Numbered from the stretch's first letter, positions 1 through 26,926 are shown. The stretch: 44,492 nt of DNA from Dehalococcoidia bacterium (GCA_030605575.1 JAUWIC010000069.1:1-44492); one strand, 5' to 3'. Translations and numbers: made by a program. The notes: generated by a model from the letters alone, not told the origin.

Positions 1-1771
1 CGGTAGCCAGCTCCCGTAACCGGCACTCAAATACATCCTGGCAACCGCAGGCTAGACAGCGCCCGGCCTCATGTTTAGCCATTTCCTCAGTGAACCCAAG
101 CTCAATCTCGGCAAAGTTCTCTTTCCGTTCTTCTGGGTCTAGGACGGGCATTTCAGTTCTTGGGATACGCTCTACCCGCTCATAGTCGGTGATGTCAATC
201 TCAGCTAAATCACCTTTGGTGCAATTATAAGGTTTTGTCTCGGGGGTAATTTGCTGGTTGCTTAAGTACTGGTTGATGGAAATTGCTGCTCTTCGCCCGG
301 CGGCGGTCGCTTCCACTACCGTAGCTGGGCCGGAAGTACAGTCACCACCAGCGAATACCCCTTCCACGGAGGTTTCCATTGTTTCCTCATTGGTGTTGAT
401 GTATCCTCTGCGGTTGAGCTTTACCTGGCTATCCTGGTTCAGGCTGGAAGTGTCCAGCGTCTGACCAATAGCCATAATTACGGTATCTACTTTTATGGTG
501 AATTCTGAGCCAGCTATTGGCTCTGGTCGTCGCCGACCTGAACTGTCAGGCTCTCCCAGAATCATTCTGATGCATTCCATGGAGTCAACCTTACCGTTCT
601 GGGTGTTTATCCTTACCGGGGCGGCTAAGAATTGAAGTTGGATTCCTTCTTGCTCGGCTTGCCCTACCTCTTCCTCATTAGCTGGCATTTCATTTCTTGA
701 CCGGCGGTAAACAATGGTTATCTCCCCTGCCCCTAGCCGCAGGGCAGTTCGAGCAGCATCTATGGCGGTATTACCACCCCCGATAACGGCTACCTTCTTA
801 CCTAGTGTTACCTTCTTGCCCAAGGCTACATCTCCCAGGAATCCTATCCCGGAAAGAACACCGGGCAAGTCTTCTCCCTTAATTTTCATCTTCTGGTTGG
901 CTTGAGCACCAAGGGCAATAAAGATGGCTTCATAGCCCATGGTCTTCAGACTTTCAATGGTAAAATCTGTGCCCAGAGAGACATTGCCGCGAATTTGACG
1001 GCATAGATTGGCGATAATAGCTATTTCCTTGTCTAGAAGTGCTTTGGGGAGACGATATTCTGGAATGCCGTATTTCATCATTCCACCGAGCTCGGGATTG
1101 GCGTCCAAGATTGTTACCTCATGCCCGTCAAGGGCAAGGTAATAGGCGGCTGATAAGCCGGCAGGACCTCCACCGACAATAGCCACTTTGTGCCCGGTGG
1201 CTGGTTTAGGCTTAGGGATATCAGGGTTTCCGTTATTCTGGTCATAATCGGCGGCAAACCGCTTTAGGGCGTTTATAGCTACCGGCTCATCCACCAAATT
1301 CCGGCGGCATTTGATTTCACAGAAGCGGGGGCATACTCGCCCGCAGACAAGGGGCAGGGGATTAGACTCCCTGATTAGTTTTAACGCTTCTCTATACTGG
1401 CCATTGGCAATGAGGCTAATATAGCCCTGAATATCAATGCCAGCCGGACAGGCAAGCTTACAGGGAGCAACACAATCACCATAGTGGTCAGAGAGCAGTA
1501 ATTCCAGAGCCATTCGGCGGATGTTAACGAGGTCATCGGTTTTTGTCCTCACCACCATACCTTCTGTTACCGGTGTGGTACATGCTGGCGTTGGCCCGCC
1601 ATTCCCGTCCACTTCTACCAGACAGAGACGACAGGCGGCGGTCGGTTTCAGACGAGGGTCGTGGCACAGAGTAGGTATCTTGACTCCGTTTTGTTCCGCC
1701 GCCTCTAGGACGGTGGCTCCGGCTTCTACTTCAACCTTTTCCCCGTTTAATGTAAACGCGACCTTAGGCAT
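1..1771 (-). CDS. StnC/SfrBA-like large subunit: N-terminal [2Fe-2S] (HydA/NuoG-like) domain + GltD/NfnB-like FAD/NADP(H) oxidoreductase domain; 3' end runs off the window
   Basis: Absent from the ORF track because it has no stop in the window. Manual translation from ATG at 1771 gives MPKVAFTLNGEKVEVEAGATVLEAAEQNGVKIPTLCHDPRLKPTAACRLCLVE...PACTTPV...SDHYGDCVAPCKLACPAG...VCGRVCPRFCE...VAIVGGGPAGLSAA...GGGNTAIDAARTALRLGA..IVYRR...FAGGDC...EAGRCLACGCQDVFEC. Confidence 0.9.
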   Translation of the reverse strand, partial: MPKVAFTLNGEKVEVEAGATVLEAAEQNGVKIPTLCHDPRLKPTAACRLCLVEVDGNGGPTPACTTPVTEGMVVRTKTDDLVNIRRMALELLLSDHYGDCVAPCKLACPAGIDIQGYISLIANGQYREALKLIRESNPLPLVCGRVCPRFCEIKCRRNLVDEPVAINALKRFAADYDQNNGNPDIPKPKPATGHKVAIVGGGPAGLSAAYYLALDGHEVTILDANPELGGMMKYGIPEYRLPKALLDKEIAIIANLCRQIRGNVSLGTDFTIESLKTMGYEAIFIALGAQANQKMKIKGEDLPGVLSGIGFLGDVALGKKVTLGKKVAVIGGGNTAIDAARTALRLGAGEITIVYRRSRNEMPANEEEVGQAEQEGIQLQFLAAPVRINTQNGKVDSMECIRMILGEPDSSGRRRPEPIAGSEFTIKVDTVIMAIGQTLDTSSLNQDSQVKLNRRGYINTNEETMETSVEGVFAGGDCTSGPATVVEATAAGRRAAISINQYLSNQQITPETKPYNCTKGDLAEIDITDYERVERIPRTEMPVLDPEERKENFAEIELGFTEEMAKHEAGRCLACGCQDVFECRLRELAT

Positions 1772-1781
1772 TTCTTTTTCC

Positions 1782-3563
1782 CTAGTAGACAGATACGGCA
1801 TCAAGACGACACACTTTCATACATAATCCACAGCGAATACACTTTTCATTATCAATAACGTAAGGCTTCTTTTTCTCTCCCGAGATAGCTCCAGTAGGGC
1901 AATATTTAGTACAAAGCCCGCACCCGGGGCATTTCTCCGGGATAATCTCGTAGGTAATTAAGGCTGGACATTTCTTGGCTGGGCATTTCTTCTCATAGAT
2001 ATGGGCTTCATATTCATCACGGAAGTACTTAACCGTGGTTAATACCGGGTTAGGTGCCGTCTGTCCCAGCCCACACAACGAAGCCCTCTTTACATTCTGG
2101 GCTAATTCCTCAAGGAGTTCTATGTCCCCCTCTTTGCCGTTACCTTCGGTAATTCGTTGCAAAATCTCGAGCATACGCAAGGTTCCTACCCGGCAAAAGG
2201 TGCACTTGCCGCAGGATTCAGCCTGGGTGAAATTGAGGAAGAATTTGGCTATATCTAGCATACAGCTGGTTTCATCCATTACTATCAATCCGCCCGAGCC
2301 CATGATGGCACCGGTCTCAGTTACCGACTCATAATCTACGCGGGTATCGGCTAAACTGGCGGGAATAACACCACCAGACGGTCCCCCTATCTGGATGGCT
2401 TTGAATTCTAGTCCGGTTGAGGTTCCACCACCGATGTTAAAGACAATCTCCCTCAAGGTTATACCCATGGGGACTTCTATTAGCCCACCGCGAGCTACCT
2501 TACCCGCCAGGGCGAAGACCTTGGTCCCCTTGCTTTTCTCGGTGCCGTAGGTATTATAGGCATCGGCACCATGGAGGATAATCCAGGGTACATTAGCTAA
2601 AGTCTCTACATTATTAATAGTGGTGGGTTTGCCCCATAAGCCTGACTGGGCAGGGAAGGGAGGGCGGAATCGGGGCATTCCCCGCCGTCCCTCTATGGAC
2701 ATGATGAGAGCCGTTTCCTCCCCGCAGACAAAAGCACCTGCCCCCTGCCTAATTTTTATATCAAAGTCAAAATTATAGCCCAGGATACTCTCACCGATAA
2801 ATCCTGCTTCCCTGGACTGAGCTATGGCTATCTCTAATCGCTGAATTGCCAGCGGATACTCGGCTCTGACGTAAATATAGCCCTCCGAGGCTCCGACGGC
2901 GTAGCCAGCTATCAGTATCCCTTCAATAACACTGTGAGGGTCGCTTTCCAGAACACTTCTATCCATAAATGCCCCGGGGTCACCTTCATCAGCGTTACAG
3001 ATTATGTATTTTTGTCTATTAGCCGACTTTCGGGCGAAGCCCCATTTGATGCCGGTAGGGAAGCCGGCGCCACCTCTTCCCCTCAAGCCGGAATTAGTGA
3101 CTTCACTAATTACCTCCTGGGGTGACATACTGCGCAATATCTTGTCTATTGCCTGGTAACCGTCGGCAGCTAAATAATCATCAATAGACTCGGGGTCAAT
3201 TATGCCGCAGTTTCGGAGCACAATCCTTGTTTGTTTAGCTAAAAAGCTGTTTATTTCTTCATCCGGTATAACCCACTCGGTAACGGGCTTACCGCCAATA
3301 ATGTGTTCATTGATTATCCGTTCAACTTTCTCCGGGGTTACCTTGCCGTAGAATATGCGCTCTTTCTCGGGGGATGAGACCTCAACCAATACCTCGTTGT
3401 AGCACATACCCATACACCCGGTTTGCTTCAACTTCACATCCAGTCCCCTGTCACCAAACTGGGTGCTGAAAGCATCGTATACCTTTCTGCCTCCAGCGGC
3501 TATGCCGCAGGAGGCGAGCCCTACCTTTATTAGCCAACTTTTGTCTCTTGCCCAGGACATCAA
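1782..3563 (-). CDS. NuoF/HydB-like (StnB-like) FMN/NADH-binding subunit with N-terminal thioredoxin-like [2Fe-2S] and C-terminal 2x[4Fe-4S] ferredoxin domain
   Basis: GLRGRGGAGFPTG, CNADEGDPGAFMDR, GAFVCGEETAL, ESCGKCTFCRVG, SLCGLG, C-terminal CPGCGLCTKYCP and CIRCGLCMKVC. Confidence 0.95.
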   Translation of the reverse strand: MMSWARDKSWLIKVGLASCGIAAGGRKVYDAFSTQFGDRGLDVKLKQTGCMGMCYNEVLVEVSSPEKERIFYGKVTPEKVERIINEHIIGGKPVTEWVIPDEEINSFLAKQTRIVLRNCGIIDPESIDDYLAADGYQAIDKILRSMSPQEVISEVTNSGLRGRGGAGFPTGIKWGFARKSANRQKYIICNADEGDPGAFMDRSVLESDPHSVIEGILIAGYAVGASEGYIYVRAEYPLAIQRLEIAIAQSREAGFIGESILGYNFDFDIKIRQGAGAFVCGEETALIMSIEGRRGMPRFRPPFPAQSGLWGKPTTINNVETLANVPWIILHGADAYNTYGTEKSKGTKVFALAGKVARGGLIEVPMGITLREIVFNIGGGTSTGLEFKAIQIGGPSGGVIPASLADTRVDYESVTETGAIMGSGGLIVMDETSCMLDIAKFFLNFTQAESCGKCTFCRVGTLRMLEILQRITEGNGKEGDIELLEELAQNVKRASLCGLGQTAPNPVLTTVKYFRDEYEAHIYEKKCPAKKCPALITYEIIPEKCPGCGLCTKYCPTGAISGEKKKPYVIDNEKCIRCGLCMKVCRLDAVSVY

Positions 3564-3587
3564 TCTCTCCTATTTGTGTCTGTAGGC

Positions 3588-4106
3588 TTAGCCTACTGGA
3601 GCCGGTATTTCTTTTGCTTCTTTTTTCCGAATTTCATTCACTATCTTGTCAATAGCTTCAGGAGTAAGCCGTCCGTAAGTTTCACCATTGACCATTATGC
3701 AGGGAGCCAAGCTGCAACAGCCAAGACAAGCCACTCGCTCTACGGTGAACATACCGTCCTGGCTGGTCTCTCCCTCCCTGGCACCGGTAACCTGGGATAG
3801 TCTCTCAGCCACCGTTTCGGTACCACACAGATGACAGGCGGTGCCATGACAAACCTTAATTAGGTTCTTACCCAGGGGCTGGAGTCTAAACTGGGCATAG
3901 AAGGTAACTATGCCGAATACCTCGCTGGCCGGGACATTCATGTTCTCGGCTATGCGTTGTATAGCTACCGGTGGTACATAGCCGTAGGTTTCTTGAATCT
4001 CTTGGAGGACTGGTATCACCGCCCCGGCTTCCACATTGTGTTTGTGGACTATGGCATCAATCACGGCGAAGCTGGGTTTCTCCCTGGTGCTAGCTTCAAT
4101 AACCAT
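3588..4106 (-). CDS. NuoE/HydC-like (StnA-like) [2Fe-2S] subunit
   Basis: VCHGTACH...CLGCCSLAP motif; directly upstream of the NuoF-like gene. Confidence 0.95.
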   Translation of the reverse strand: MVIEASTREKPSFAVIDAIVHKHNVEAGAVIPVLQEIQETYGYVPPVAIQRIAENMNVPASEVFGIVTFYAQFRLQPLGKNLIKVCHGTACHLCGTETVAERLSQVTGAREGETSQDGMFTVERVACLGCCSLAPCIMVNGETYGRLTPEAIDKIVNEIRKKEAKEIPAPVG

Positions 4107-5402: not shown

Positions 5403-5439
5403 CTCTCTGTCGCCCTGGGTATCAGGATAGGTTGGGTAT

Positions 5440-13407: not shown

Positions 13408-13498
13408 TTTCCTGATTCAGGGCACCTCACCCGTTCCGGAAGTGATTATCTGGAGCAACACCATACCCCCGCCGTTTGTCCGGCACGCCAACCAGTCA

Positions 13499-15010: not shown

Positions 15011-15069
15011 TTTTATCTCCCTTACTTCCCAACTAGCCTCTTGGCTAGCTCGGGGAAACAATTCGATAG

Positions 15070-17484: not shown

Positions 17485-18146
17485 GGGAGGTCTTCAATGG
17501 CAAACCAACCCCTTTTCAGGCTATACAGTATTGCCTCAGAACGGGAACCCACCCCCAGCTTATTGAAGATGCTTCTCATGTGGGCTTGGACGGTGCGCTC
17601 GCTGATAAAGAGGGTATCCCCGATATCCTTATTGCGCATACCTTTGGCGGCTATCTTGAGTACTTCCATCTCGCGTTCACTCAAGGGTGACAGGGGTCGG
17701 ACCGGTGTCGGCCCCTCGGCAGGAGTTTTGAAGCGGGTCATCAGCTTGCGTAGGACTGTAGGATGAATCATCGGCTCTCCAGCATAGACGGCTCGAACCG
17801 CGTTAATCAACTCGTCACCACTTACATTCTTCAGTAGATAACCGGCGGCGCCTGCTTCCAGCATGCTGAAAATATATTCATCATAATCATAACCGGTGAG
17901 GACAAGCACTATGGTGGCGGGTAAGATAGCCTTGATTTGCTTGGTAGCCTCAATGCCACTAAGTTTGGGCATGGCGACATCCATAATGACCACATCAGGC
18001 TTGAGTTGGCGGGCTAATCGGACCGCCTCCTCACCATCACCAGCCTCACCCACAATCTCAAAATCCTGTTCACGTTCTAGGAGTTGGCAAGTACCTTGTC
18101 GCACCACCACGTGGTCTTCAGCCAGTAGAATCCTGATAGTATTCAT
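17481..18146 (-). CDS. NarL/LuxR-family response regulator (paralog of 4737..5402)
   Basis: REC + LuxR HTH; same length (221 aa) and long shared stretches with regulator 1. Confidence 0.96.
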   Translation of the reverse strand: MNTIRILLAEDHVVVRQGTCQLLEREQDFEIVGEAGDGEEAVRLARQLKPDVVIMDVAMPKLSGIEATKQIKAILPATIVLVLTGYDYDEYIFSMLEAGAAGYLLKNVSGDELINAVRAVYAGEPMIHPTVLRKLMTRFKTPAEGPTPVRPLSPLSEREMEVLKIAAKGMRNKDIGDTLFISERTVQAHMRSIFNKLGVGSRSEAILYSLKRGWFAIEDLP

Positions 18147-18340: not shown

Positions 18341-18422
18341 TAAATATAAACAGAGGCTAAGAATGATGAATGGTAGTAAAGGAAATACGGCTCAAATAAT
18401 AGTGGAGAAGGAGGGAAAGACG

Positions 18423-19064
18423 ATGAAAATAGGCGACATGGTCAAAATTAGGAAGTGCGATCCAATACCAGGGGTGGTGGGCGAAAATGCTGACATAGTA
18501 GATATGCAAATTCAAGAGTTCGAGAAATATACTGTATATCCTTTGTGGGTCAAGATGGCCTCTGGTGAGCGTAAAGGCAGGATTTATGGCTTCCAATATG
18601 ATGAGGTGGAGGTACTGCCTAAAGCGTATGAGGCACAAGTCGTAAGCAAGAGAGGAGGGACAGAGACAGTGAAGACAAAAGTGGCTGAACAGCTGGAAGA
18701 GCTCCTGAAGGGCGTTACTACGGTAGAGGAGGTGGCGGAGGTAGAGAAGGCTATTAACGAAGCCAAGGGGAAGGTCTTGGCCGAGCCAGCTCTGGGCTTC
18801 TGGGAAGGAAAGACACCCTGCTGGGAGATGTTCCGCTGTCCCGAGGCAATGAGGAATGAGTGTCCGGCATTTAAGTATCGGACTCTGCCGTGCTGGCAGA
18901 TTGAGGGTACTTACTGCAAGCTTCTCGATTATGGGGCGAGAGGCGATGGCACCGATATCTGCCAGGTATGCCGAGTTTACAAGAAATGGGGTCACGGTGA
19001 GCCGATAGAGATAAAGCTTTGTGGTAAGGGATTCAATCCGGCTGGGAAAGTAGTTCCCAAGTGA
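18423..19064 (+). CDS. hypothetical protein: N-terminal SH3-like beta domain, helical linker, C-terminal Cys-rich two-CW-type domain
   Basis: AAGGAGG SD before ATG 18423 (track start 18363). C-terminal CWEMFRC-x7-C-x9-CW-x6-C-x14-CxxC. Confidence 0.75.
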   Translation: MKIGDMVKIRKCDPIPGVVGENADIVDMQIQEFEKYTVYPLWVKMASGERKGRIYGFQYDEVEVLPKAYEAQVVSKRGGTETVKTKVAEQLEELLKGVTTVEEVAEVEKAINEAKGKVLAEPALGFWEGKTPCWEMFRCPEAMRNECPAFKYRTLPCWQIEGTYCKLLDYGARGDGTDICQVCRVYKKWGHGEPIEIKLCGKGFNPAGKVVPK

Positions 19065-19288
19065 GCTAAAAAAGAAAGACTGGAGCTAGATAATAACGAT
19101 AACGCGGAATTGCCTGATTAGTATTAGCTTCGAGGGCATATATCGCAAGCAATGAGGGTATACCAGCTTGTGATAGGTGCCCTCTTTATATTACAATGTG
19201 GCGGCCAAGCTCACCTTAACCAGGCGAGCTAGCAATTATCGCCACAATTATTACAATCGCCGCATATTACCACAGCAGGAGGTATAAC

Positions 19289-19789
19289 ATGGCAGCAGTT
19301 GAAAGTGAGGTGCGTCCGGGAGTTGGGTATGCGGGGAGGGTTTTCCGACAAATTCAGGAAGTGATTGATGAGACTGGTGGACAGGCTGGTGCCCTTATTC
19401 GGGTGCTGCAGCAAGCACAGGGGCTAATTGGCTATCTCCCAGCACCGGTAATAAAGACTATCTCCCGAGATTTAAAGCTTCCTCTCAGCGAGGTATATGG
19501 GATAATCAGTTTTTATCACTTCTTTTCTATGGTGCCTAAGGGTAAGTATGTTATTCAAGTGTGTATGGGCACCAGTTGCTATGTTAAGGGGGGACAGAGG
19601 ATTCTCGATGCCTTAAGGAAGGAGTGGGGTCTTGAACCTGAGGGAATTACTCCCGATGGCAGGTTCTCTCTGGAAACCGTTCGCTGCCTGGGTTGCTGTG
19701 GTCTATCCCCGGTAATGGCTATTGGTGAAGATGTCCACCGAAAGGTCAAACCCAGCCAGGTAAAGGATATTCTGAATTCTTACCGCTAG
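19289..19789 (+). CDS. NuoE/HoxE/HydC-like [2Fe-2S] subunit
   Basis: VCMGTSCYV...CLGCCGLSP; AGGAGG SD. Confidence 0.95.
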   Translation: MAAVESEVRPGVGYAGRVFRQIQEVIDETGGQAGALIRVLQQAQGLIGYLPAPVIKTISRDLKLPLSEVYGIISFYHFFSMVPKGKYVIQVCMGTSCYVKGGQRILDALRKEWGLEPEGITPDGRFSLETVRCLGCCGLSPVMAIGEDVHRKVKPSQVKDILNSYR

Positions 19790-19802
19790 GAGGGAATAGA
19801 AG

Positions 19803-22800
19803 GTGGCGCGAATCTCCTCTATAGAGGATCTGAAAAGATTAAAAGCGGCTGTAGAACCGCTTTTTGCTGTGCGTGAAGATGGGGACTTCACCAAGATTAA
19901 AACTGCACCTGAAATTAACATCCGAGTTTGCCGGGGGAGCGGTTGCGCTGCATCTGGGTCAGAGAAGGTAACCAGAGCCTTTGAAGAGTCCATCAAGGGA
20001 AACGGGCTAGAGAAAAGGGTCAGGATTATAATAACAGGGTGTCATGGTCTTTGCGAGATGGGACCTATAGTTATAATCAACCCTGGGGATATCCTTTATA
20101 CCAGGGTGAAAGAGGAGGATATAGAGGAGATTGTACAGAGCCATCTAATAAAAGGCGAAATAGTGGAAAGATTGGTTTACCATGACCCGATAACAGGAAA
20201 GCCAATACCGAGATACGGTGAGATTAGTTTCTATTTGAGGCAAGAGAGGAGAGTGCTGCATAATAATGGCTTCATCGACCCCTGGAGCATTGATGAATAT
20301 GTTGCCCGGGATGGTTATCAAGCCCTGGGCAAGGTCTTGACCCAGATGAAGCCTGAAGAGGTTATAGACGAGATTAAGAAAGCAGGGTTGCGGGGACGGG
20401 GAGGAGCCGGCTTCCCCACAGCTATAAAGTGGGGCTTCGTCCGTAGTGCGTCCAGTGATGAAAAATACGTAGTTTGTAATGGTGATGAAGGCGACCCCGG
20501 GGCTTATATGAATCGGTCCGTTCTGGAGGGTAACCCCCACTCCATAATCGAGGGGATGGCCATTGGTGCCTATGCTATAGGGAATGTGTGCCAGGGCTAT
20601 GCCTATGTCAGAGCTGAATATCCCCTGGCCATTGAGACTTTAAGCCACGCCATCGCTCAAGCCCGAGAGTATGGTCTTCTGGGCAAAAATATTTTAGGTG
20701 CCAGCTTTGAATTTTCTATTGATATCTTCCCCGGGGCTGGTGCCTTCGTCTGTGGAGAAGAAACAGCCCTTTTGGGTTCCATCGAGGGGAAAAGGGGAAA
20801 TCCCAGGCAAAGACCTCCCTTCCCGGCCAACGTCGGGGGAGGACTCTTTGGCAAGCCTACCGCTATCAATAATGTGGAGACATGGTCAGATGTCCCCCAG
20901 ATTATTTTACAGGGGGCTGACTGGTTTGCCAGCGTTGGCACGGAGCAAAGCAAGGGGACAAAAACCTTCAGCCTGGTGGGGAAAATAAACAATACAGGAC
21001 TGGTCGAGGTCCCCCTAGGGACACCGCTGGGAAAAATCGTATTCGATATTGGTGGGGGAATACCTAACGGCAAAAGATTCAAGGCGGTTCAGATAGGTGG
21101 ACCGTCGGGAGGTGTTATCCCTATTGAGCATCTCAATACGCCTGTTGATTATGAAGCGGTTACCGCTCTCGGGGCAATTATGGGTTCGGGTGGGCTGGTG
21201 GTCATGGATGAGGATAGTTGCATGGTGGATGTGGCCAAATTCTTCCTTCAATTCACCAGGGATGAGTCCTGTGGTAAATGTACTCCTTGCCGGGCCGGGA
21301 TTCCTGAGATGTTGCAGATTCTAAACAGGGTCAGCCGGGGAGAAGCCACCCTGGAGGAACTGGATACCCTGGAAGAACTGGCTGAGATGGTTGCCTCGGC
21401 TTCTCTATGTGGTCTAGGACAAACCAGTCCGAATCCAGTCTTAACCACACTACGCCACTTCCGTGAGGAATATGAGGCTCATATTATAGATAAAAAGTGC
21501 CCGGCTGCCGTTTGCCAGGCCCTATTTAGAGTCCCCTGTCAGCATACCTGTCCTGTAGAACTGGACATCCCCGGTTATGTCAGTTTGATTAAGGAGGGTA
21601 AGTTTGTTGAAGCTTATTGTTTAATCAAACAGCGCAATCCTTTACCGGCGGTATGTGGTCGGGTGTGTCATCACCCCTGCGAGTTTAAGTGCAATCGAAC
21701 TCAGATTGATGAACCAATAGCCATCAGGGAGCTGAGGCGATTTGTTGCTGACTACGCTTTTAATTTGGGGGTTAAATATGCGCCTAAGATAAAGGCAGGG
21801 AAGGAGGAGAAGGTGGCTATCATCGGGGCTGGTCCCGCCGGGCTATCAGCAGCTTGGGACCTTGCCCTGGAAGGATACCAGGTTACCATCTTTGAGGCTC
21901 TTCCTGTGGCTGGGGGAATGCTGGCGGTAGCCATTCCTGAGTATCGTCTGCCTAAGGATATTCTGAGCCATGAGGTTCAAGAGATAGAAAATCTGGGGGT
22001 GGATATAAGACTAAGTACACCGGTTAGCGATGTTGAATCATTGCTTAAGGACGATTATAAAGCAGTGTTCATCGCCACCGGTGCTCATAAAGGAGACAAG
22101 ATGGGGATTCCTGGCGAAGACCTGGGAGGGGTCTATGATGCCATTGAGTTCCTGAGGGAGGTCAATTTAGGTCGGGAAGTACCGGTGGGCAGGAGGGTGG
22201 CAATTGTTGGCGGTGGCAACTCAGCCGTTGACTCTGCCCGAGTAGCTTTAAGAAAGGGCGCTGAGGAAGTACATATATTATATAGGCGCGAGAGGAAGGA
22301 TATGCCAGCCATATCTGAGGAGATTGAAGCCGCTGAAGAAGAGGGAATCAATTTTCACTTCCTGGTAGCCCCGACTAGGATTTTAGGTAATGATGGCAGG
22401 GTTAACGGGCTTGAGTGCATCCGAATGGAGCTGGGGGAATTTGACCGAAGTGGGAGAAGGACTCCCTCTCCTATTGGCGGCTCGGAATATGTAGTAGATA
22501 CGGATATGGTTATTGAAGCCGTAGGTCAAAGACCTGACACCTCTTTTATCAAGGATAACGGAATCAAGATGGGAAGGGGTGGGAGAGTAGTTGCCGACCG
22601 ACGGACATTGGCTACTGGTAGAAAGGGGATTTTTGCCGGTGGAGATGCCGTAACCGGTCCTCAGACGGTAATTGAAGCCATCGCTGCCGGACAGAGAGCA
22701 GCCTCCTCTATAAAGAGATATCTCCAGGGGAAGGAGCTTTCACCATTGGTTGAGCGTGATGGCTATGAACCGATTGCCTACTCATCTGTGCCACCCAGTG

Positions 22801-22958
22801 ATGAAGAGGCACAGGAGAAGGCCAGAATTAGGGCTTCTGAAATCGCCATGAGCCAAAGAAAGACGTCGTTTAAGGAGATTACTTTGACCTATAGCCCGGA
22901 AGAAGCCATAGAAGAGGCGTCAAGATGTCTAAGATGCGACCTTGAGGTTGGAGGATAA
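19803..22958 (+). CDS. NuoF/HoxF/HydB-like diaphorase fused to a GltD/NfnB-like FAD/NADP(H) domain
   Basis: Trx-like 2Fe-2S (CRGSGC...GCHGLC), GLRGRGGAGFP, DEGDPGAYMNR, ESCGKCTPCR, then PCQHTCP...VCGRVCHHPCE, GAGPAGLSAA, GGGNSAVD...YRR, EASRCLRC. Confidence 0.93.
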   Translation: MARISSIEDLKRLKAAVEPLFAVREDGDFTKIKTAPEINIRVCRGSGCAASGSEKVTRAFEESIKGNGLEKRVRIIITGCHGLCEMGPIVIINPGDILYTRVKEEDIEEIVQSHLIKGEIVERLVYHDPITGKPIPRYGEISFYLRQERRVLHNNGFIDPWSIDEYVARDGYQALGKVLTQMKPEEVIDEIKKAGLRGRGGAGFPTAIKWGFVRSASSDEKYVVCNGDEGDPGAYMNRSVLEGNPHSIIEGMAIGAYAIGNVCQGYAYVRAEYPLAIETLSHAIAQAREYGLLGKNILGASFEFSIDIFPGAGAFVCGEETALLGSIEGKRGNPRQRPPFPANVGGGLFGKPTAINNVETWSDVPQIILQGADWFASVGTEQSKGTKTFSLVGKINNTGLVEVPLGTPLGKIVFDIGGGIPNGKRFKAVQIGGPSGGVIPIEHLNTPVDYEAVTALGAIMGSGGLVVMDEDSCMVDVAKFFLQFTRDESCGKCTPCRAGIPEMLQILNRVSRGEATLEELDTLEELAEMVASASLCGLGQTSPNPVLTTLRHFREEYEAHIIDKKCPAAVCQALFRVPCQHTCPVELDIPGYVSLIKEGKFVEAYCLIKQRNPLPAVCGRVCHHPCEFKCNRTQIDEPIAIRELRRFVADYAFNLGVKYAPKIKAGKEEKVAIIGAGPAGLSAAWDLALEGYQVTIFEALPVAGGMLAVAIPEYRLPKDILSHEVQEIENLGVDIRLSTPVSDVESLLKDDYKAVFIATGAHKGDKMGIPGEDLGGVYDAIEFLREVNLGREVPVGRRVAIVGGGNSAVDSARVALRKGAEEVHILYRRERKDMPAISEEIEAAEEEGINFHFLVAPTRILGNDGRVNGLECIRMELGEFDRSGRRTPSPIGGSEYVVDTDMVIEAVGQRPDTSFIKDNGIKMGRGGRVVADRRTLATGRKGIFAGGDAVTGPQTVIEAIAAGQRAASSIKRYLQGKELSPLVERDGYEPIAYSSVPPSDEEAQEKARIRASEIAMSQRKTSFKEITLTYSPEEAIEEASRCLRCDLEVGG

Positions 22959-22961
22959 GCA

Positions 22962-24926
22962 ATGGGTGAGATAACCTTAACCATCAACGGGAAACAGGTT
23001 AAAGGAAAGGAAGGAGACACTGTTCTCGAGGTTTGTCAGGCTAATGGCATTGATGTGCCAACCCTTTGTCACCTTGATGGATTAAGCGATGTCGGCGCCT
23101 GCCGAATGTGTGTGGTGGAAATTGAGAAGGAGAGGAGACCAGTTCCTGCCTGTACCTATCCGGCCAGGGATGGACTGGTGGTTGAAACCAACACCGAGCG
23201 ACTGGAGAGATATCGTCGCCAGATATTGGAACTTATATTTACCGAGCACAATCACTTCTGTATGTTCTGTGAAGCAAGCGGGGATTGTGAGCTACAGAAA
23301 CTGGCTTACCGATATCAGATGGACAACGTGCGTTATCCCTATACCTTTCCTTCTTTATCTGTGGACTCACTAAGTGATTATCTGGTAATTGACCATAATC
23401 GTTGCATCCTCTGCGGCCGGTGCATTCGAGCCTGTAGTGAAGTGGCTGGTAGTCATACCCTGGATTTCAGTCAGCGAGGCTGGAAAACGCTGGTGACTGC
23501 TGACTTGGAGCAACCACTGGGCGAATCATCCTGTTTCCTCTGCGGTGCCTGTGTTCAGGCATGTCCTACCGGGGCTATTTTCAGTAAACTCAGCCTTTAC
23601 AAAGGCAGAACGGATGAGTGCCAGCAAGTAAAGACCGTTTGCCCTGCCTGCGGAGTGGGCTGTGAACTGAATGTACTGGTGAAGGATAATAACCTGGTGA
23701 GAATTGAAGCCCCACGGTTAACCGAGCCCAGGGGGCCATTATGCCGGATGGGGCGTTTTGGTCTGCTGGAGCCAACTCCACCTAGGGTTACTTCACCTCT
23801 GATACGGGGTAAGCAGGGCGAGCTAGAGGAGTGTACTTTACATAAAGCAGTGGAGGTAATCGTCGACAGGCTGGCAGGGGTAAAGGACGGTTTGGCCGGC
23901 ATGATATCTACCAGGGTTCCCAGTGAGACACTTTCTTTGTTCAATAGGTTCATCGGTGAGGTAATAGGTAGCGACTCGATTGATACCCTGGATGGAGAAA
24001 GCTATCGGATAATTACCAATGGTATTAGGCAATTTCAGGATAATGGGAGGGGATTAGACATTGAGTGTCCTATTGAGGATATACCGGAGGCAGATTGCAT
24101 TATTGTCGTCGGTGCCGACCCTGAGAAGACCAACCCTATCATTAGTACTCTCGTGCGCCGGGCGGTGAGGCAAAGGCAGGCAAAGTTGATTGTGGTAAAC
24201 TCATCCCGGGATGTTTTTCCCCTCTGGACTGACCTTTGGCTTAAACCCAGGGCGGGTAGTGAAGGGGTCCTGCTTAGTGGTCTAGCCGGGATTCTTATCG
24301 ACAAAGGTCTGGTTGTTTCAGGAAAGGCAAGTGCCAGGCTTATTAAGTCTTTTAGCCGGTATAGCATAGGCGAAGTGGTCAGGACTACCGGCATAGAGGA
24401 AGAGAGGTTGGAGTTGTTAGCGGGGATGTATGGCCAGGCTGAGCGTGGGGTCATCATCTATGGAGACGAGTTGCTACGGACGAATGATGCCAGCTCGATT
24501 ACCACCATCTTGAATCTGGCTAATATGACCGGAAATCAGGTTGGGGACAGGCTAAGAGTAATCTCACTTAAACCGCGGGCTAATAGTCGTGGTGCCTGGG
24601 AGATGGGGTTAGCCAGGGGCATAAAGCGGGGCAAGCTGAAGGGACTCTATCTCCTTCTCGCCGACGAACGTGATAGCGGGGAATTATTGAGTTGGCTTAA
24701 GGGAATAGATTTCTTGGTAGTACAGGCCAGCTATCAGTCACCGATTACATCTATGGCTGATGTGGTTCTACCCTCACCGATATGGGCAGAAAGAGAGGGT
24801 AAATATGTGACTATGGATGGGCGTGTTCTCGAATTAAAACGGGTGCTTCAGCCCAAAGATGGTCTACCTCAGGACCAGGAAGTATTAATAGAAATTTCTC
24901 AAAGATTGGGACACAAGTTGACCTAA
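22962..24926 (+). CDS. HoxU/HydA/NuoG-like Fe-S subunit with degenerate molybdopterin-oxidoreductase C-terminal domain
   Basis: CH...ACRMC...PAC (2Fe-2S), HNHFCMFCEASGDC, CILCGRCIRAC, CFLCGACVQACP, CPACGVGC...LC, ADVVLP. Confidence 0.88.
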   Translation: MGEITLTINGKQVKGKEGDTVLEVCQANGIDVPTLCHLDGLSDVGACRMCVVEIEKERRPVPACTYPARDGLVVETNTERLERYRRQILELIFTEHNHFCMFCEASGDCELQKLAYRYQMDNVRYPYTFPSLSVDSLSDYLVIDHNRCILCGRCIRACSEVAGSHTLDFSQRGWKTLVTADLEQPLGESSCFLCGACVQACPTGAIFSKLSLYKGRTDECQQVKTVCPACGVGCELNVLVKDNNLVRIEAPRLTEPRGPLCRMGRFGLLEPTPPRVTSPLIRGKQGELEECTLHKAVEVIVDRLAGVKDGLAGMISTRVPSETLSLFNRFIGEVIGSDSIDTLDGESYRIITNGIRQFQDNGRGLDIECPIEDIPEADCIIVVGADPEKTNPIISTLVRRAVRQRQAKLIVVNSSRDVFPLWTDLWLKPRAGSEGVLLSGLAGILIDKGLVVSGKASARLIKSFSRYSIGEVVRTTGIEEERLELLAGMYGQAERGVIIYGDELLRTNDASSITTILNLANMTGNQVGDRLRVISLKPRANSRGAWEMGLARGIKRGKLKGLYLLLADERDSGELLSWLKGIDFLVVQASYQSPITSMADVVLPSPIWAEREGKYVTMDGRVLELKRVLQPKDGLPQDQEVLIEISQRLGHKLT

Positions 24927-24941
24927 GTTAGGAGGCTAACA

Positions 24942-25475
24942 TTGGCCAAGGTAAAAGTGGCTTCAGCCTGGTTGGATTGTTGCTCTGGTTGTCACATGTC
25001 TTTTCTGGATATGGATGAGATACTTATTGATTTGGCAGATGTAATAGAACTCACCGCTAGCCCCATAACCGATATTAAAGAATTTTCACCGGTTGATGTC
25101 GGGATTATTGAAGGGTCAGTGAGTAATGAGCATGATGAACAGGTAGCTAAAAACTTGCGTGCCAATTGCAAGATACTGATGGTATTAGGTGATTGTGCTT
25201 GTTTCGGGGGTATAAATAGTATGCGTAACCTGTTCACTATTGAAGAGGTTCTTCATAGATACTATAGCACTGAGAGCACCACCAAAGATAGTAAAATTCC
25301 ATCATCGGAAGACATACCACCGCTGACCGAGGTTAAGCCGGTAAATCAGGTGGTTAAGGTTGACTGTTATGTCCCAGGATGCCCGCCCTCAGCTAAAGCT
25401 ATTCACTATGCTCTGACCGAACTTCTGGCGGGCAGAATTCCGGTGCTCCCGAGCGAGATGATGAGGTTTGATTAA
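24942..25475 (+). CDS. hoxY: group 3 [NiFe]-hydrogenase small subunit (HoxY-like, proximal cluster only)
   Basis: WLDCCSGCHMS, IIEGSV, LGDCACFGG, VPGCPP; 177 aa. Confidence 0.92.
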   Translation: MAKVKVASAWLDCCSGCHMSFLDMDEILIDLADVIELTASPITDIKEFSPVDVGIIEGSVSNEHDEQVAKNLRANCKILMVLGDCACFGGINSMRNLFTIEEVLHRYYSTESTTKDSKIPSSEDIPPLTEVKPVNQVVKVDCYVPGCPPSAKAIHYALTELLAGRIPVLPSEMMRFD

Positions 25476-25498
25476 GATTTCGAGGTGGAGGCATTATT

Positions 25499-26926
25499 AT
25501 GACTAGAAAGATTGTAATCGAGCCCATTACTCGAATTGAGGGGCATGGCAAGGTAACCATTCACCTTGATGATAGAGGTAATGTGGACCAAGCCAGGCTT
25601 CATGTTACCCAAGTGCGGGGGTTCGAGAAGTTTTGTGAAGGGCGGCTTTTCTGGGAGATGCCAGTTATTACTGCTCGAATCTGTGGTATTTGCCCGGTAA
25701 GTCACCACCTGGCTTCAGCTAAAGCTGGGGATGTCATTTTGGGGGTGAAGCTGACACCTACTGCTGAGATGCTACGCCGGCTAATTCACATGGCGCAGAT
25801 TGTTCAGTCTCATGCCCTCCATTTCTTCTACTTGGCTAGCCCTGACCTGCTCTTCGGTATGGATGCTGACCCAGCCAAGCGAAATATCATGGGTCTTATT
25901 GCCGAAAAGCCCGAGATTGCCAGAAAGGGAGTGAAGCTTCGTGCTTTCGGTCAGAAAATAATAGAGATGCTCGGAGATAAGAGGGTTCATCCCAATGCCG
26001 CTATCCCGGGAGGGATGAATAAGGCTCTTAGTCCTGATAGGCGTGATGAAATCCTAAGCCAGGTGGATGATATTATCGCTGACTGTCAGTTCGCCATTGA
26101 CCTGGTTAAGGAGTATTATGCTCAACATAGTGAGGAGGCTACCACTTTTGCCAGTTTTGGCACCGGCTACCTCGGACTTGTCGATAATGATGGTAATGTT
26201 GAGTATTATGATGGCAAGCTCAGATTGAAAGATAGCCAAGGTATTACCCTGGAAGATAATGTAGCCCCGGAGAATTACCTTTCCATTATTGAAGAAAAGG
26301 TCGAGGATTGGTCTTACCTTAAGTTCCCTTATTACAAGAAGCTGGGTTACCCTGTTGGTATGTACCGTGTAGGACCTTTGGGGCGGCTCAATGTTGCCGA
26401 TGGGTGTGATACCCCTCTAGCTAATAAAGAGTTCGGTAACTTCAAGAAGCTGGGCAACAATGGCGTAGTCCAGGGGTCGTTATACTACCACTACGCCCGC
26501 TTGATTGAAACGCTTAATGCCGCGGAAAAGATAAAGTTACTGGTGCAAGATGAAATCATCTGCTCCCAGGAAATATGGGTCAATTCCAGTGAGATTAACG
26601 AGGAGGGCATAGGCGTAATTGAAGCCCCCAGAGGGACACTTTTCCACCATTATTGGGTAGATACGAGTGGCAAAATTCGCAAGGTCAACTTGATTGTGGC
26701 CACTGGTAATAATAATTTGGCAATGAATCGTGCTGTTTATGAAGTAGCTAAGGGATTTATCAAAGACGGAAAACTTACTGAAGGGATACTTAATCGGGTT
26801 GAGGTTGCTATTCGCTGCTACGACCCCTGTCTCTCCTGCTCCACACATGCTCTAGGTCAGATGCCTCTGGTGATTCAATTGGTCTCTTCTCGCGGTGAGG
26901 TTATCAACGAGGTCAGTGCCGGCTAA
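25499..26926 (+). CDS. hoxH: group 3 [NiFe]-hydrogenase large subunit (HoxH-like)
   Basis: [19 protein letters not shown] (L1), [14 protein letters not shown] (L2) with a C-terminal cleavable extension. Confidence 0.95.

What the first reader, a model, noticed from the sequence alone, without database searches (positions are those of the whole stretch)
19289..26926. Five-subunit [NiFe]-hydrogenase whose HydB ferredoxin domain is replaced by a GltD/NfnB module
Seen: the order E, F, U/A, small, large. In the 1051-aa F subunit, HIIDKKCPAAVC runs straight into a GltD domain (PCQHTCP...GRVCHHPCE, two Rossmann motifs, YRR). The paralog at 1782-3563 has a 2x[4Fe-4S] domain at the same place. Established: HydABCSL-type [NiFe] enzymes bifurcate to NAD+ and ferredoxin through that C-terminal domain, and GltD/NfnB domains bind FAD and NADP(H). 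Inference: one polypeptide carries both an FMN/NADH and an FAD/NADPH site, so the enzyme could couple H2 to both nicotinamide pools or bifurcate at a different flavin. This would be a hydrogenase-transhydrogenase hybrid that I do not know to be characterised.
Basis: partly seen in the sequence, partly recalled or inferred. Interest (0 to 1): 0.75.

Follow-up and report, generated by a model that had tools for sequence, protein, structure and literature searches.

The report
NiFe hydrogenase with NADPH module replacing ferredoxin arm
An uncultured marine-sediment Dehalococcoidia bacterium encodes a soluble nickel-iron hydrogenase of the electron-splitting type in which the small domain that normally hands electrons to ferredoxin is replaced by a complete NADPH-binding flavin module, a widespread but biochemically untested design that probably ties hydrogen to both NADH and NADPH.

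Summary
Window 19289-26926 (+) holds a tight five-gene operon, C/E, B/F, A/U, S, L. For all five products the best solved relative is the electron-bifurcating NiFe-HydABCSL of Acetomicrobium mobile, PDB 7T2R.

The 1051-aa B subunit keeps the N-terminal [2Fe-2S] domain, the FMN/NADH core, the [4Fe-4S] cluster next to FMN and the His/Cys hinge site. The 2x[4Fe-4S] ferredoxin-like tail is replaced by a complete GltD module of the Nfn-Bfu/Stn kind.

It is no assembly artefact. Of 80 related loci, 28 keep C-B(GltD)-A-S-L, all in Chloroflexota. Another 32, from many phyla, pair the same fused B with an [FeFe] HydA. This genome has a second fused B beside a true formate dehydrogenase, plus a Stn-like operon and NfnAB.

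The fused B is in print for [FeFe] enzymes only (Zheng & Huang 2024, PMC11406978). Seven full-text searches found no paper on the NiFe form and no biochemistry. This scan flagged the same design before on other DNA.

Best reading, inferred: NADP(H) replaces ferredoxin at the end of the low-potential branch, linking H2 to NAD(H) plus NADP(H). It is a new variant of a known kind. Interest 0.6.

The parts
19289..19789 (+). HydC/BfuC (NuoE/HoxE-like, 166 aa), carrier of the mobile [2Fe-2S] cluster C1
   Evidence: Pfam 2Fe-2S_thioredx at 1.9e-48. Best solved relative is 7t2r_C, 146 bits, over residues 18-165.
19803..22958 (+). HydB/BfuB fused to a GltD module (1051 aa)
   Evidence: Residues 39-577 match 7t2r_B at 800 bits. 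Residues 576-1046 match 9bov_A (C. saccharolyticus NfnA) at 440 bits.
19905..20138 (+). N-terminal thioredoxin-like [2Fe-2S] domain of B (site B5; C43, C48, C80, C84)
   Evidence: Pfam hit at residues 35-112. The Cys are present in the translation and kept in 15-22 of 28 diverse fused proteins.
20235..21497 (+). NuoF-type core of B: FMN/NAD(H) site, SLBB domain, and [4Fe-4S] B1 (C490, C493, C496, C536)
   Evidence: TIGR01959 nuoF_fam over residues 159-561. Close, gap-poor alignment to A. mobile HydB.
21480..21515 (+). Hinge metal site B2 (H560, C566, C571, together with C473), the 'HIIDKKCPAAVC' of the finding
   Evidence: Aligned to 'HIKDKRCPAKIC' of 7t2r_B. Ligand pattern as described for Bfu B subunits. 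Kept in 27-28 of 28 fused proteins. The fifth Cys ligand of A. mobile (C476) is Ser511 here, so the site probably binds Zn (inference).
21531..21764 (+). GltD Fe-S domain: C579/C583 of the distal [4Fe-4S], and C618, C622, C626, C630 of the proximal [4Fe-4S]
   Evidence: Pfam Fer4_20 at residues 568-654. Alignments to 9bov_A, 9n5u_A, 4ylf_B and 8oh5_C. Cys kept in 23-28 of 28.
21810..22691 (+). FAD- and NADP(H)-binding Rossmann domains of the GltD module (GAGPAGL; GGGNSAVDSAR...YRR)
   Evidence: Pfam Pyr_redox_2 at residues 670-963. The motifs match those of the NADPH-using NfnA, StnC and NfnB and are conserved in 28 fused proteins.
22854..22955 (+). C-terminal tail with RCLRC (C1042, C1045), which completes the distal GltD cluster
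   Evidence: Aligned to the 'RCLECG' tail of 9bov_A and 8oh5_C, and to the N-terminal 'RCLQC' of 4ylf_B. 28 of 28 conserved. Weak Fer4_20 hit at 22857-22940.
22962..24926 (+). HydA/BfuA (654 aa): [2Fe-2S], His-ligated and 2x[4Fe-4S] clusters, plus a cofactor-less molybdopterin-like domain; the connector to the hydrogenase dimer
   Evidence: Pfam Fer2_4, NADH-G_4Fe-4S_3, Fer4_Nqo3, Molybdop_Fe4S4 and Molybdopterin. 7t2r_A at 458 bits over residues 1-653.
24942..25475 (+). HydS, short [NiFe] small subunit (177 aa)
   Evidence: 7t2r_E at 196 bits, end to end (177 against 179 aa). Pfam Oxidored_q6.
25499..26926 (+). HydL, [NiFe] large subunit (475 aa)
   Evidence: 7t2r_D at 590 bits, against 469 for 5xf9_D and 424 for 5odc_F. 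Motifs [10 protein letters not shown] and DPCLSCSTH, followed by a 25-residue tail.
1..4106 (-). Context, not part of the enzyme: a Stn/Nfn-Bfu-type operon. C is 3588-4106, unfused B with a 2x[4Fe-4S] tail is 1782-3563, and A with an inserted GltD is 1-1804, cut by the contig end.

Best explanation
This is a cytoplasmic five-subunit [NiFe] hydrogenase of the Bfu (HydABCSL) family.

Shown by sequence: H2 is handled at HydL/HydS, and HydA wires it to the HydB-HydC core. That core keeps the FMN/NAD(H) site, cluster B1, the mobile [2Fe-2S] subunit C and the hinge site B2. In the solved relatives the hinge leads to two [4Fe-4S] clusters (B3/B4) that reduce ferredoxin. Here the hinge leads, 8 residues later, into a complete GltD module of the Nfn-Bfu/Stn kind, with its distal [4Fe-4S], proximal [4Fe-4S], FAD and NADP(H) site.

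Inferred: the former ferredoxin branch now ends in NADP(H), and the enzyme catalyses 2 H2 + NAD+ + NADP+ <-> NADH + NADPH + 2 H+. The two nicotinamide half-reactions would be coupled through the FMN/B1/C1 'flavobicluster', as ferredoxin and NAD are in HydABCSL.

With the in-cell potentials given by Schut et al. 2022 (NAD about -280 mV, NADP about -380 mV), NADP(H) is the lower-potential partner. My Nernst estimate puts the coupled reaction at equilibrium near 140 Pa H2, against about 3 Pa for NADH alone. Coupling would therefore let NADH be re-oxidised to H2 at a much higher H2 level, or let NADPH be made from H2 at a lower H2 level, without ferredoxin.

The direction in the cell is not known.
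For: (1) All five subunits have chains of 7T2R as their best solved relative.

(2) B aligns with A. mobile HydB up to the hinge, with few gaps. The motifs around the FMN site and the B1 and B2 ligands are kept.

(3) The GltD part aligns end to end with NfnA of C. saccharolyticus (442 bits). It also aligns with T. sibiricus NfnA, S. ovata StnC and T. maritima NfnB, including the C-terminal RCLxC tail, the FAD motif and the GGGNxA...YRR NADPH motif. The papers read describe these modules as NADPH entry points.

(4) The eight Cys of the two GltD clusters, the hinge ligands and both dinucleotide motifs are kept in 23-28 of 28 diverse fused proteins.

(5) Only 7 residues separate the last hinge ligand (C571) from the first GltD cluster ligand (C579). 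The GltD distal cluster therefore sits where B3 does in sequence.

(6) In HydABCSL and NfnABC the branch C1-B2-B3/B4 is the ferredoxin branch.

(7) The operon C-B(GltD)-A-S-L is conserved in 28 of 80 related loci. The same fused core sits beside [FeFe] HydA in 32 of 80 (15 of these checked by Pfam).

(8) The same genome also holds an unfused B with the ferredoxin-like tail, in a Stn-like operon, and a second fused B beside a true formate dehydrogenase alpha subunit (TIGR01591, 778 bits, cut-off 666). The two B types therefore coexist and are not redundant copies.

(9) hypD and a HycI-type protease are present in the genome.

(10) A weak hint only: contigs from two RNA libraries, 90-97% alike, cover parts of B(GltD), A, S and L and bridge the B/A boundary.
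Against: No activity, cofactor content or structure is known for any member, so the function is inferred from homology alone.

Thermodynamically, H2 at standard pressure can reduce both NAD+ and NADP+ without any coupling. A bifurcating mechanism is therefore not needed a priori.

The cell does use ferredoxin: Rnf, a pyruvate:ferredoxin-type oxidoreductase and acetyl-CoA synthase genes are present. A ferredoxin role therefore cannot be dismissed. In NfnSL, ferredoxin docks on the GltD-type subunit (recalled, not from a call).

Zheng & Huang propose instead a second bifurcating centre at the FAD.

I could not obtain model coordinates, so no cofactor distances were measured.

NAD versus NADP preference of the FMN site was not tested.
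Confidence: 0.4

Rival explanations
1. The wiring is the same but there is no energetic coupling. The enzyme is a plain bidirectional NAD(P)-linked hydrogenase with two independent nicotinamide sites, FMN for NAD(H) and FAD for NADP(H). Either site exchanges electrons with H2 on its own.
For: Both couples can be reduced by H2 under standard conditions, going by the potentials. B homologues that lack B3/B4 are non-bifurcating yet active with NADH (S. wolfei case, as summarised). All cofactor motifs for both sites are intact.
Against: The parts that mark bifurcating Bfu cores are all retained and conserved: the N-terminal [2Fe-2S] domain, the hinge site with its His, and subunit C. The GltD module hangs on the gated C1-B2 branch, not on the main A-B1-FMN chain.
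Confidence: 0.3
2. The enzyme is a hydrogenase-Nfn hybrid with a second bifurcation site. The FAD of the GltD module bifurcates as in NfnSL, and ferredoxin docks on the GltD [4Fe-4S] clusters. H2, NAD(H), NADP(H) and ferredoxin are then all substrates.
For: Zheng & Huang 2024 raise this for the [FeFe] form. The GltD part is 51% identical over 399 aligned residues to this genome's own NfnB-type protein on contig C68. Ferredoxin-dependent enzymes are present in the genome.
Against: The closest relatives of the module are the NfnA/StnC type (442 and 382 bits, against 391 for T. maritima NfnB). For these, the structure papers report loss of bifurcation at FAD and a simple NADPH-entry role. No NfnS/PyrK-like partner is encoded in the operon.
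Confidence: 0.15
3. The GltD module serves another acceptor or partner, for example polysulfide or Fe(III) as in the SudA/SfrB relatives, or a glutamate-synthase-like partner. Alternatively it is a structural remnant.
For: GltD-family modules serve many systems. Earlier notes of this scan report the same fused B beside GltB-like and MetVF genes in other genomes (not checked here).
Against: No such partner gene lies in or beside this operon. The NADPH motif and all cluster ligands are conserved, which argues against a remnant.
Confidence: 0.05
4. The fusion is an assembly or frame artefact that joins separate nuoF-like and gltD-like genes.
For: None found.
Against: There is one open frame with no stop. 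The 120 best database relatives are all fused. There are 10 full-length fused cluster representatives down to 35% identity. Fused frames of about 1010-1150 aa occur in at least 67 of 300 other genomes sampled from the class.
Confidence: 0.01

Closest known systems
NiFe-HydABCSL (NiFe-Bfu) of Acetomicrobium mobile, PDB 7T2R/7T30 (Feng et al. 2022, PMC8880783; passages read)
   Same: The five subunits are the same, each being the best solved match. HydS is equally short. HydA is the same NuoG-like protein with an empty molybdopterin-like domain. The B core is the same up to and including the hinge site.
   Different: The 55-residue ferredoxin-like tail of B (clusters B3/B4, the proposed ferredoxin site) is replaced by a GltD module of about 475 residues. 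The fifth Cys ligand of the hinge cluster is Ser here. No hisK, hydD or hydP genes lie inside the operon. A PAS/GAF histidine kinase and a LuxR-type regulator lie divergently upstream, and the protease is on another contig.
'Sub-type I BfuABC' group A3 [FeFe] hydrogenases of Hydrogenedentota (Zheng & Huang 2024, PMC11406978; section 7 read in full)
   Same: The B-subunit architecture is the same: the B3/B4 domain is replaced by a DPD_II (2x[4Fe-4S]) domain plus an FAD/NAD(P) domain. I found this partnered with HydA in 32 of 80 loci.
   Different: The catalytic arm there is an [FeFe] HydA, not A-S-L with a [NiFe] site. That paper reports no NiFe case and no biochemistry. On the NuoF-core tree, the NiFe-linked fused B proteins form their own group, with an [FeFe]-linked Dehalococcoidales protein as sister.
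NfnABC / StnABC (Nfn-Bfu) transhydrogenases: C. saccharolyticus 9BOV, T. sibiricus 9N5U, S. ovata 8OH5 (PMC11829005, listing only; PMC12018979, sections 6 and 9 read; PMC10482914, passages read)
   Same: The BC core is the same, and so is the kind of GltD module, including the C-terminal RCLxC strand. NADPH, NAD and a Bfu core sit in one complex.
   Different: There the GltD module is inserted in subunit A, on the mid-potential input arm, and B keeps its ferredoxin-like tail. Here it sits on B in place of that tail, and the A arm carries a hydrogenase. This genome has both arrangements.
NAD-reducing soluble [NiFe] hydrogenase, group 3d (Hydrogenophilus thermoluteolus, 5XF9)
   Same: A cytoplasmic NuoEF-type diaphorase joined to a [NiFe] dimer. 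It is the second-best solved match of L (469 bits).
   Different: Per Schut et al., Hox-type F subunits lack the extra clusters B2-B5, and HoxU is short. The window's A is full-length and NuoG-like, and its B has the bifurcating-type additions.

Membership tests
Bfu family, NiFe-HydABCSL type | Five subunits A, B, C, S and L encoded together | tested here: met
   The same order recurs in 28 related loci.
Bfu family, NiFe-HydABCSL type | [NiFe] large subunit with the N-terminal RxCGxCxxxH and C-terminal DPCxxCxxH motifs (motif definitions recalled) | tested here: met
   [10 protein letters not shown] and DPCLSCSTH are present. Pfam NiFeSe_Hases hit.
Bfu family, NiFe-HydABCSL type | B subunit with the FMN/NAD site, B1 [4Fe-4S], the N-terminal thioredoxin-like site B5, and the hinge site B2 with its conserved His | tested here: met
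.
Bfu family, NiFe-HydABCSL type | B subunit ending in a ferredoxin-like domain with two CX2CX2CX3CP clusters (B3/B4), the ferredoxin site | tested here: not met
   After C571 the chain continues into Fer4_20 and Pyr_redox_2. The 2x[4Fe-4S] Fer4 domain is present in the window's other B, at 1782-3563.
Bfu family, NiFe-HydABCSL type | Electron-bifurcating activity: H2 with NAD+ and ferredoxin | not testable with these tools
   This needs enzyme assays.
GltD / NfnL / Nfn-Bfu NADPH module | Two [4Fe-4S] clusters (8 ligands), an FAD GxGxxG motif, and an NADPH GxGxxA...YRR motif | tested here: met
GltD / NfnL / Nfn-Bfu NADPH module | Binds FAD and uses NADP(H) | not testable with these tools
   Inferred from identity of the motifs with NADPH-using relatives.
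Group 3d Hox (HoxEFUYH) NAD-reducing hydrogenase | Short HoxU (about 240 aa), and a HoxF without the extra hinge and tail clusters | tested here: not met
   A is 654 aa and matches NuoG and 7t2r_A over its whole length. HoxE and HoxU NCBIfam scores are below their cut-offs (152 against 224; 278 against 333). The HydDB classifier was not available.
Sub-type I BfuB (Zheng & Huang 2024) | B3/B4 domain replaced by DPD_II plus an FAD/NAD(P) domain at the C-terminus of BfuB | tested here: met
   That description covers [FeFe] complexes only.

The most novel reading that the evidence does not exclude
The BC(GltD) core is a ferredoxin-free electron-bifurcating or confurcating unit. It would split electrons from H2 (or, with the second copy in this genome, from formate) between NAD+ and NADP+, exploiting the gap of about 100 mV between the two nicotinamide pools in the cell. 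If so, NADP(H) can take the 'low-potential' seat of a Bfu enzyme. One interchangeable core would then serve [NiFe], [FeFe] and formate-dehydrogenase modules across many anaerobic phyla.
Probability: 0.35. Interest if true: 0.8.

Novelty: new variant of a known kind. Interest (0 to 1): 0.6.

Why it matters
How Bfu enzymes bifurcate with a single FMN is still debated. A natural variant that lacks the ferredoxin domain altogether, and ends that branch in a two-electron NADP(H) flavin, gives a direct test. Does the gated C1-B2 branch still work, is turnover coupled, and can a nicotinamide replace ferredoxin?

There is an ecological side too. The design is common in sediment Chloroflexota: a fused frame was seen in at least 67 of 300 other genomes sampled from the class. 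It also occurs in many other anaerobes. H2 and formate budgets drawn from genome annotation may therefore mis-assign these enzymes as 'Hox' or as ferredoxin-dependent bifurcating hydrogenases.

In this 1.1-Mb genome, four differently wired GltD modules suggest that balancing NADH, NADPH and ferredoxin is central to its way of life. The four are NiFe-Bfu, Fdh-Bfu, the Stn-like operon and NfnAB.

Tried and rejected
- **Assembly artefact:** rejected.

- **Hox/group 3d assignment:** rejected on subunit A length, sub-threshold HoxE/HoxU scores and the B additions.

- **HydDB classification:** the classifier is not on hand. Only relative scores to solved large subunits could be given.

- **Single or multiple origin of the fusion:** the NuoF-core tree has 62 rows, used the quick method, and 26 of its 59 inner branches are unresolved. 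It needs 8 fused/unfused changes, yet its well-supported branches force only 1. One origin is neither shown nor excluded. The tree used 12 of the 28 NiFe-linked loci, 10 of the 32 [FeFe]-linked loci and 28 unfused representatives that I picked. The rest were left out to save time.

- **Literature:** seven full-text searches found no paper on the NiFe form and no biochemistry for any fused B. PMC5736913, PMC7325909, PMC10327494, PMC12918512 and PMC5037454 were checked by passages and hold nothing on it. PMC5037454 does show that HydDB's A2 rule excludes downstream proteins that also have NuoF. Subscription journals and supplements were not searched.

- **Earlier notes on this genome:** nothing on hydrogenases.

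- **Sequencing runs:** the RNA-library contigs are 90-97% alike, so they come from relatives, and such libraries can hold DNA. I count this as a hint only. Parts of the operon without RNA cover say nothing.

- **Promoter and terminator scan:** 18 promoter-like sites against 11.4 +/- 4.4 expected, and 13 terminator-like sites against 8.6 +/- 2.9. This is not informative. A 9-of-12 match lies at 19168-19197, upstream of C.

- **Not run:** structure prediction and complex prediction. The tools return no coordinates, so cofactor distances could not be read.

- **Contig C74:** its 879-aa open frame is not the simple continuation of the cut gene at window 1-1804. The 240-aa overlap is 89.6% identical, which points to a strain variant or a paralog.

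Full report
**Observation.** Window 19289-26926 (+) carries five co-directional genes separated by 13, 3, 15 and 23 nt.
- 19289-19789: a 166-aa thioredoxin-like [2Fe-2S] protein (NuoE/HoxE-like).
- 19803-22958: a 1051-aa protein.
- 22962-24926: a 654-aa HoxU/NuoG-like protein.
- 24942-25475: a 177-aa [NiFe] small subunit.
- 25499-26926: a 475-aa [NiFe] large subunit.

Pfam places five domains in the 1051-aa protein: 2Fe-2S_thioredx (35-112), Complex1_51K (191-365), NADH_4Fe-4S (476-560), Fer4_20 (568-654) and Pyr_redox_2 (670-963). The paralog at 1782-3563 (-) has a 2x[4Fe-4S] Fer4 domain at residues 538-590, the matching position.

**What family it belongs to.** For each of the five products, the best match among solved structures is a chain of 7T2R/7T30, the electron-bifurcating NiFe-HydABCSL of Acetomicrobium mobile.
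- L: 590 bits, with the next best at 469 (5XF9, an NAD-reducing enzyme) and 424 (5ODC, Mvh).
- B, residues 39-577: 800 bits.
- A, residues 1-653: 458 bits.
- S: 196 bits, end to end, 177 against 179 aa.
- C: 146 bits.

L has [10 protein letters not shown] and DPCLSCSTH followed by a 25-residue tail. The genome holds hypD and a HycI-type protease on contig C26. HoxE and HoxU NCBIfam scores are below their cut-offs. A is a full-length NuoG-like protein, so this is not a Hox (group 3d) enzyme in architecture.

**Anatomy of the fusion.** The alignment with A. mobile HydB runs without large gaps up to 'YEAHIIDKKCPAAVCQALFRV'. By the description of Bfu B subunits in PMC12018979 (section 6), this His/Cys stretch is not part of GltD. 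H560, C566 and C571, together with C473, form the hinge metal site B2, which lies between the core and the ferredoxin-like tail. The extra Cys that makes B2 a [2Fe-2S] cluster in A. mobile (C476) is Ser511 here, as it is Thr in the Zn-binding relatives. B2 is therefore probably Zn, which is an inference.

Eight residues after C571 comes PCQHTCP, the first half of the distal GltD cluster. The GltD part (residues 576-1046) aligns end to end with the module inserted in subunit A of the NfnABC/StnABC transhydrogenases:
- 9BOV_A, 442 bits;
- 9N5U_A, 406 bits;
- 8OH5_C, 382 bits;
- T. maritima NfnB (4YLF_B), 391 bits.

[quoted passage not shown] In NfnB it lies at the N-terminus. The protein stops six residues after it.

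In an alignment of 28 diverse fused proteins, the following are kept in 23-28 of 28: the hinge ligands, the eight GltD cluster Cys, the FAD GxGxxG motif and the NADPH GGGNxA...YRR motif. The N-terminal [2Fe-2S] Cys are kept in 15-22 of 28.

**Not an artefact, and not rare.**
- The 120 best relatives in the 5.8-billion-protein collection are 924-1055 aa long and all carry both halves. Source names are 'FAD-dependent oxidoreductase' or 'NADH-quinone oxidoreductase subunit F' from Chloroflexi/Dehalococcoidia MAGs.
- Among cluster representatives at 50% identity, 10 of the 150 listed match across both halves in one stretch, down to 35% identity.
- A genome scan returned 80 loci, which I classified.
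  - 28 have S and L downstream of C-B(GltD)-A. All have titles naming Dehalococcoidia, Dehalococcoidales, Chloroflexi, Chloroflexota or Chloroflexia.
  - 32 have an H-cluster domain beside the fused B. These come from Planctomycetota, Spirochaetota, Myxococcota, Bacteroidales, Fibrobacterota, Kiritimatiellia, TA06, Sumerlaeia, deltaproteobacteria and five Dehalococcoidales.
  - 3 (L072, L077, L084) have a different A, carrying a DHODB_Fe-S_bind domain, plus a separate GltD.
  - 3 have the NuoG-like A and then the contig ends.
  - 14 show nothing. Of these, 13 have under 2.3 kb downstream, and L005 has masked bases there.
- Pfam confirmed Fe_hyd_lg_C in 15 of the 17 A-like ORFs I tested. The other two were the L072 and L084 proteins.
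- In 301 genomes drawn from the window's class, a 161-residue query spanning the junction matched at E <= 1e-20 in 176. By my hand count of the 150 rows listed, full-span matches in frames of about 1010-1150 aa occur in at least 67 of the 300 other genomes, and often more than once per genome. A further 371 rows were not listed.

**Relationships.** The tree covers the NuoF-core columns only (62 rows, quick method). The 13 NiFe-linked fused B proteins fall on one side of a branch (SH-aLRT 86). Their sister is an [FeFe]-linked fused B from a Dehalococcoidales MAG (L041; joint branch 100). Deeper branches are unresolved, so one origin of the fusion is neither shown nor excluded. At the least, the catalytic arm was exchanged on a fused-core background within this class.

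**This genome.** G000 is 1.1 Mb in 76 contigs, 90.6% complete. Besides the finding it holds the following.
- (i) At window 1-4106 (-), a Stn/Nfn-Bfu-type operon: C of 172 aa, an unfused B of 593 aa, and an A with [2Fe-2S] plus an inserted GltD, cut by the contig end.
- (ii) On contig C58, a second C-B(GltD)-A set. Its B is 1027 aa and 52% identical to the window's B. Its A reaches the curated cut-off for formate dehydrogenase alpha (TIGR01591, 778 against 666 bits) although cut by the contig end.
- (iii) On C68, a canonical NfnAB pair.
- (iv) On C53, a second, Mvh/Vhu-like [NiFe] hydrogenase.
- Also FolD, acetyl-CoA synthase, Rnf and a pyruvate:ferredoxin-type oxidoreductase. No [FeFe] hydrogenase was found.

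Between the two Bfu operons of the window lie an MttB-family methyltransferase, a RACo corrinoid activase and a pterin-binding methyltransferase. Fused and unfused B subunits therefore coexist in a very small genome that does use ferredoxin. This argues that the fused core does a different job from the ferredoxin-linked one.

**Mechanism.** In HydABCSL the branch C1-B2-B3/B4 is assigned as the low-potential route to ferredoxin (PMC8880783). [quoted passage not shown] In NfnABC/StnABC the GltD module is a plain NADPH entry: FAD, then two [4Fe-4S] clusters, then the chain in A. It does not bifurcate.

Putting these together, the sequence-level wire in the window's B is C1, B2 hinge, distal GltD cluster, proximal GltD cluster, FAD, NADP(H). 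My best reading (confidence 0.4) is that NADP(H) has taken ferredoxin's place. The enzyme would then couple H2 to NAD(H) and NADP(H) together.

Schut et al. (Table 1) give in-cell potentials of about -280 mV for NAD and -380 mV for NADP. My own Nernst arithmetic then gives equilibrium H2 pressures of about 3 Pa for NADH alone, about 7 kPa for NADPH alone and about 140 Pa for the coupled reaction. Coupling would thus widen the H2 range in which NADH can be re-oxidised, or in which NADPH can be made from H2. A methyl-oxidising or fermenting sediment bacterium that yields NADH and NADPH and hands H2 or formate to partners would profit. This physiological picture is inference from gene content only.

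**Rivals.**
- The same wiring without coupling (0.3).
- A second, Nfn-like bifurcation at the FAD with ferredoxin docking on the GltD clusters, as Zheng & Huang suggest (0.15).
- Another acceptor or partner for the GltD module (0.05).
- An artefact (0.01).

**What is known.** Schut et al. 2022 defined the Bfu family from B subunits with a conserved cofactor set, and list NiFe-Bfu as 6 sequences from Synergistetes. Zheng & Huang 2024 describe, for [FeFe] group A3 enzymes of Hydrogenedentota, a 'sub-type I' BfuB in which the B3/B4 domain is replaced by DPD_II plus an FAD/NAD(P) domain. They say the coexistence of the two flavin centres had never been reported and needs study (section 7 read in full). 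My seven full-text searches found no description of the NiFe form and no biochemical work on any fused B. Subscription journals and supplements were not covered.

Earlier reports of this scan describe the same NiFe architecture in other Dehalococcoidia genomes and the [FeFe] form in several phyla. One of them pointed me to the 2024 paper, which I then read myself.

**Expression and habitat.** Near-identical DNA is held mainly by cold-seep, marine-sediment and salt-marsh metagenome runs. The top holder may be the source sample and is not counted. Contigs from two RNA libraries, 90-97% alike, cover parts of the GltD half of B, A, S and L. They bridge the B/A boundary (X19, 22899-23119) and the S/L boundary (X20, 25257-25569). 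They come from relatives, and such libraries can contain DNA, so this is a hint only.

**Verdict.** This is a new variant of a known kind: the first NiFe-type member I can document of a B-subunit design that is noted in print only for [FeFe] enzymes. It is widespread and mechanistically informative. Interest 0.6.

Noticed in passing
window 1-4106 (-): A Stn/Nfn-Bfu-type transhydrogenase operon. NuoE-like C is at 3588-4106. An unfused B with a 2x[4Fe-4S] tail is at 1782-3563. An A subunit with an N-terminal [2Fe-2S] and an inserted GltD module is at 1-1804 and runs off the contig end.
   Followed up: partly
own genome contig C58 (L095:1-5983, minus strand): A second GltD-fused B (1027 aa, 52% identical to the window's B), with its own C (153 aa). 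Its A subunit passes the curated cut-off for formate dehydrogenase alpha (TIGR01591, 778 against 666 bits). This looks like an Fdh-Bfu on the same modified core. A CoA-disulfide-reductase-like flavoprotein lies just upstream.
   Followed up: partly
own genome contigs C68 (L097), C53 (L096) and C74 (L098): C68 holds a canonical NfnAB pair (469 and 279 aa). C53 holds a second, Mvh/Vhu-like [NiFe] hydrogenase (L 486 aa, S 343 aa). C74 holds an 879-aa open frame of StnC type that is 89.6% identical to the window's cut A gene over a 240-aa overlap, so it is a strain variant or a paralog.
   Followed up: partly
window 10706-15061 (-): An MttB-family methyltransferase (13499-15061), a RACo-type corrinoid activase (11557-13407) and a pterin-binding methyltransferase (10706-11557). 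Together they look like a methyl-group-to-tetrahydrofolate module, lying between the two Bfu operons.
   Followed up: no
window 4737-7245 (+) and 15070-18146 (-): Two similar two-component pairs, each a 221-aa LuxR-type response regulator with a PAS (and, in the second, GAF) HisKA_3 kinase. One pair lies beside each Bfu operon. The second is divergent from the hydrogenase operon. A regulatory link was not tested.
   Followed up: no
window 18357-19064: Overlapping ORFs on both strands (212 and 233 aa), directly upstream of the operon, with no Pfam match. It is unclear which of them, if either, is a gene.
   Followed up: no
L020-L026, L029, L030, L033, L034, L039, L044, L046: In many related Dehalococcoidia loci a second [NiFe] hydrogenase cluster lies next to the fused-B operon. 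It has a separate GltD-like gene (31-34% identical to the fused module), a small subunit (28-32%) and a large subunit (39-43%; 51% over the contig-cut piece in L023).
   Followed up: no
L072, L077, L084 (deltaproteobacterial / Syntrophaceae MAGs): Here the fused B is followed by an A subunit of 831-835 aa with a DHODB_Fe-S_bind (NfnS/PyrK-like) end, and then a separate 463-aa GltD. This is a Bfu core with two GltD modules and no hydrogenase. L077 was judged by tblastn only.
   Followed up: partly
L057:12574-16269: In the locus of an [FeFe]-linked fused B, a 1231-aa ORF overlaps the end of the HydA-like tblastn match. It joins an H-cluster domain, a putative Fe-S domain, HisKA and HATPase_c. 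This looks like a sensory hydrogenase fused to a histidine kinase.
   Followed up: no
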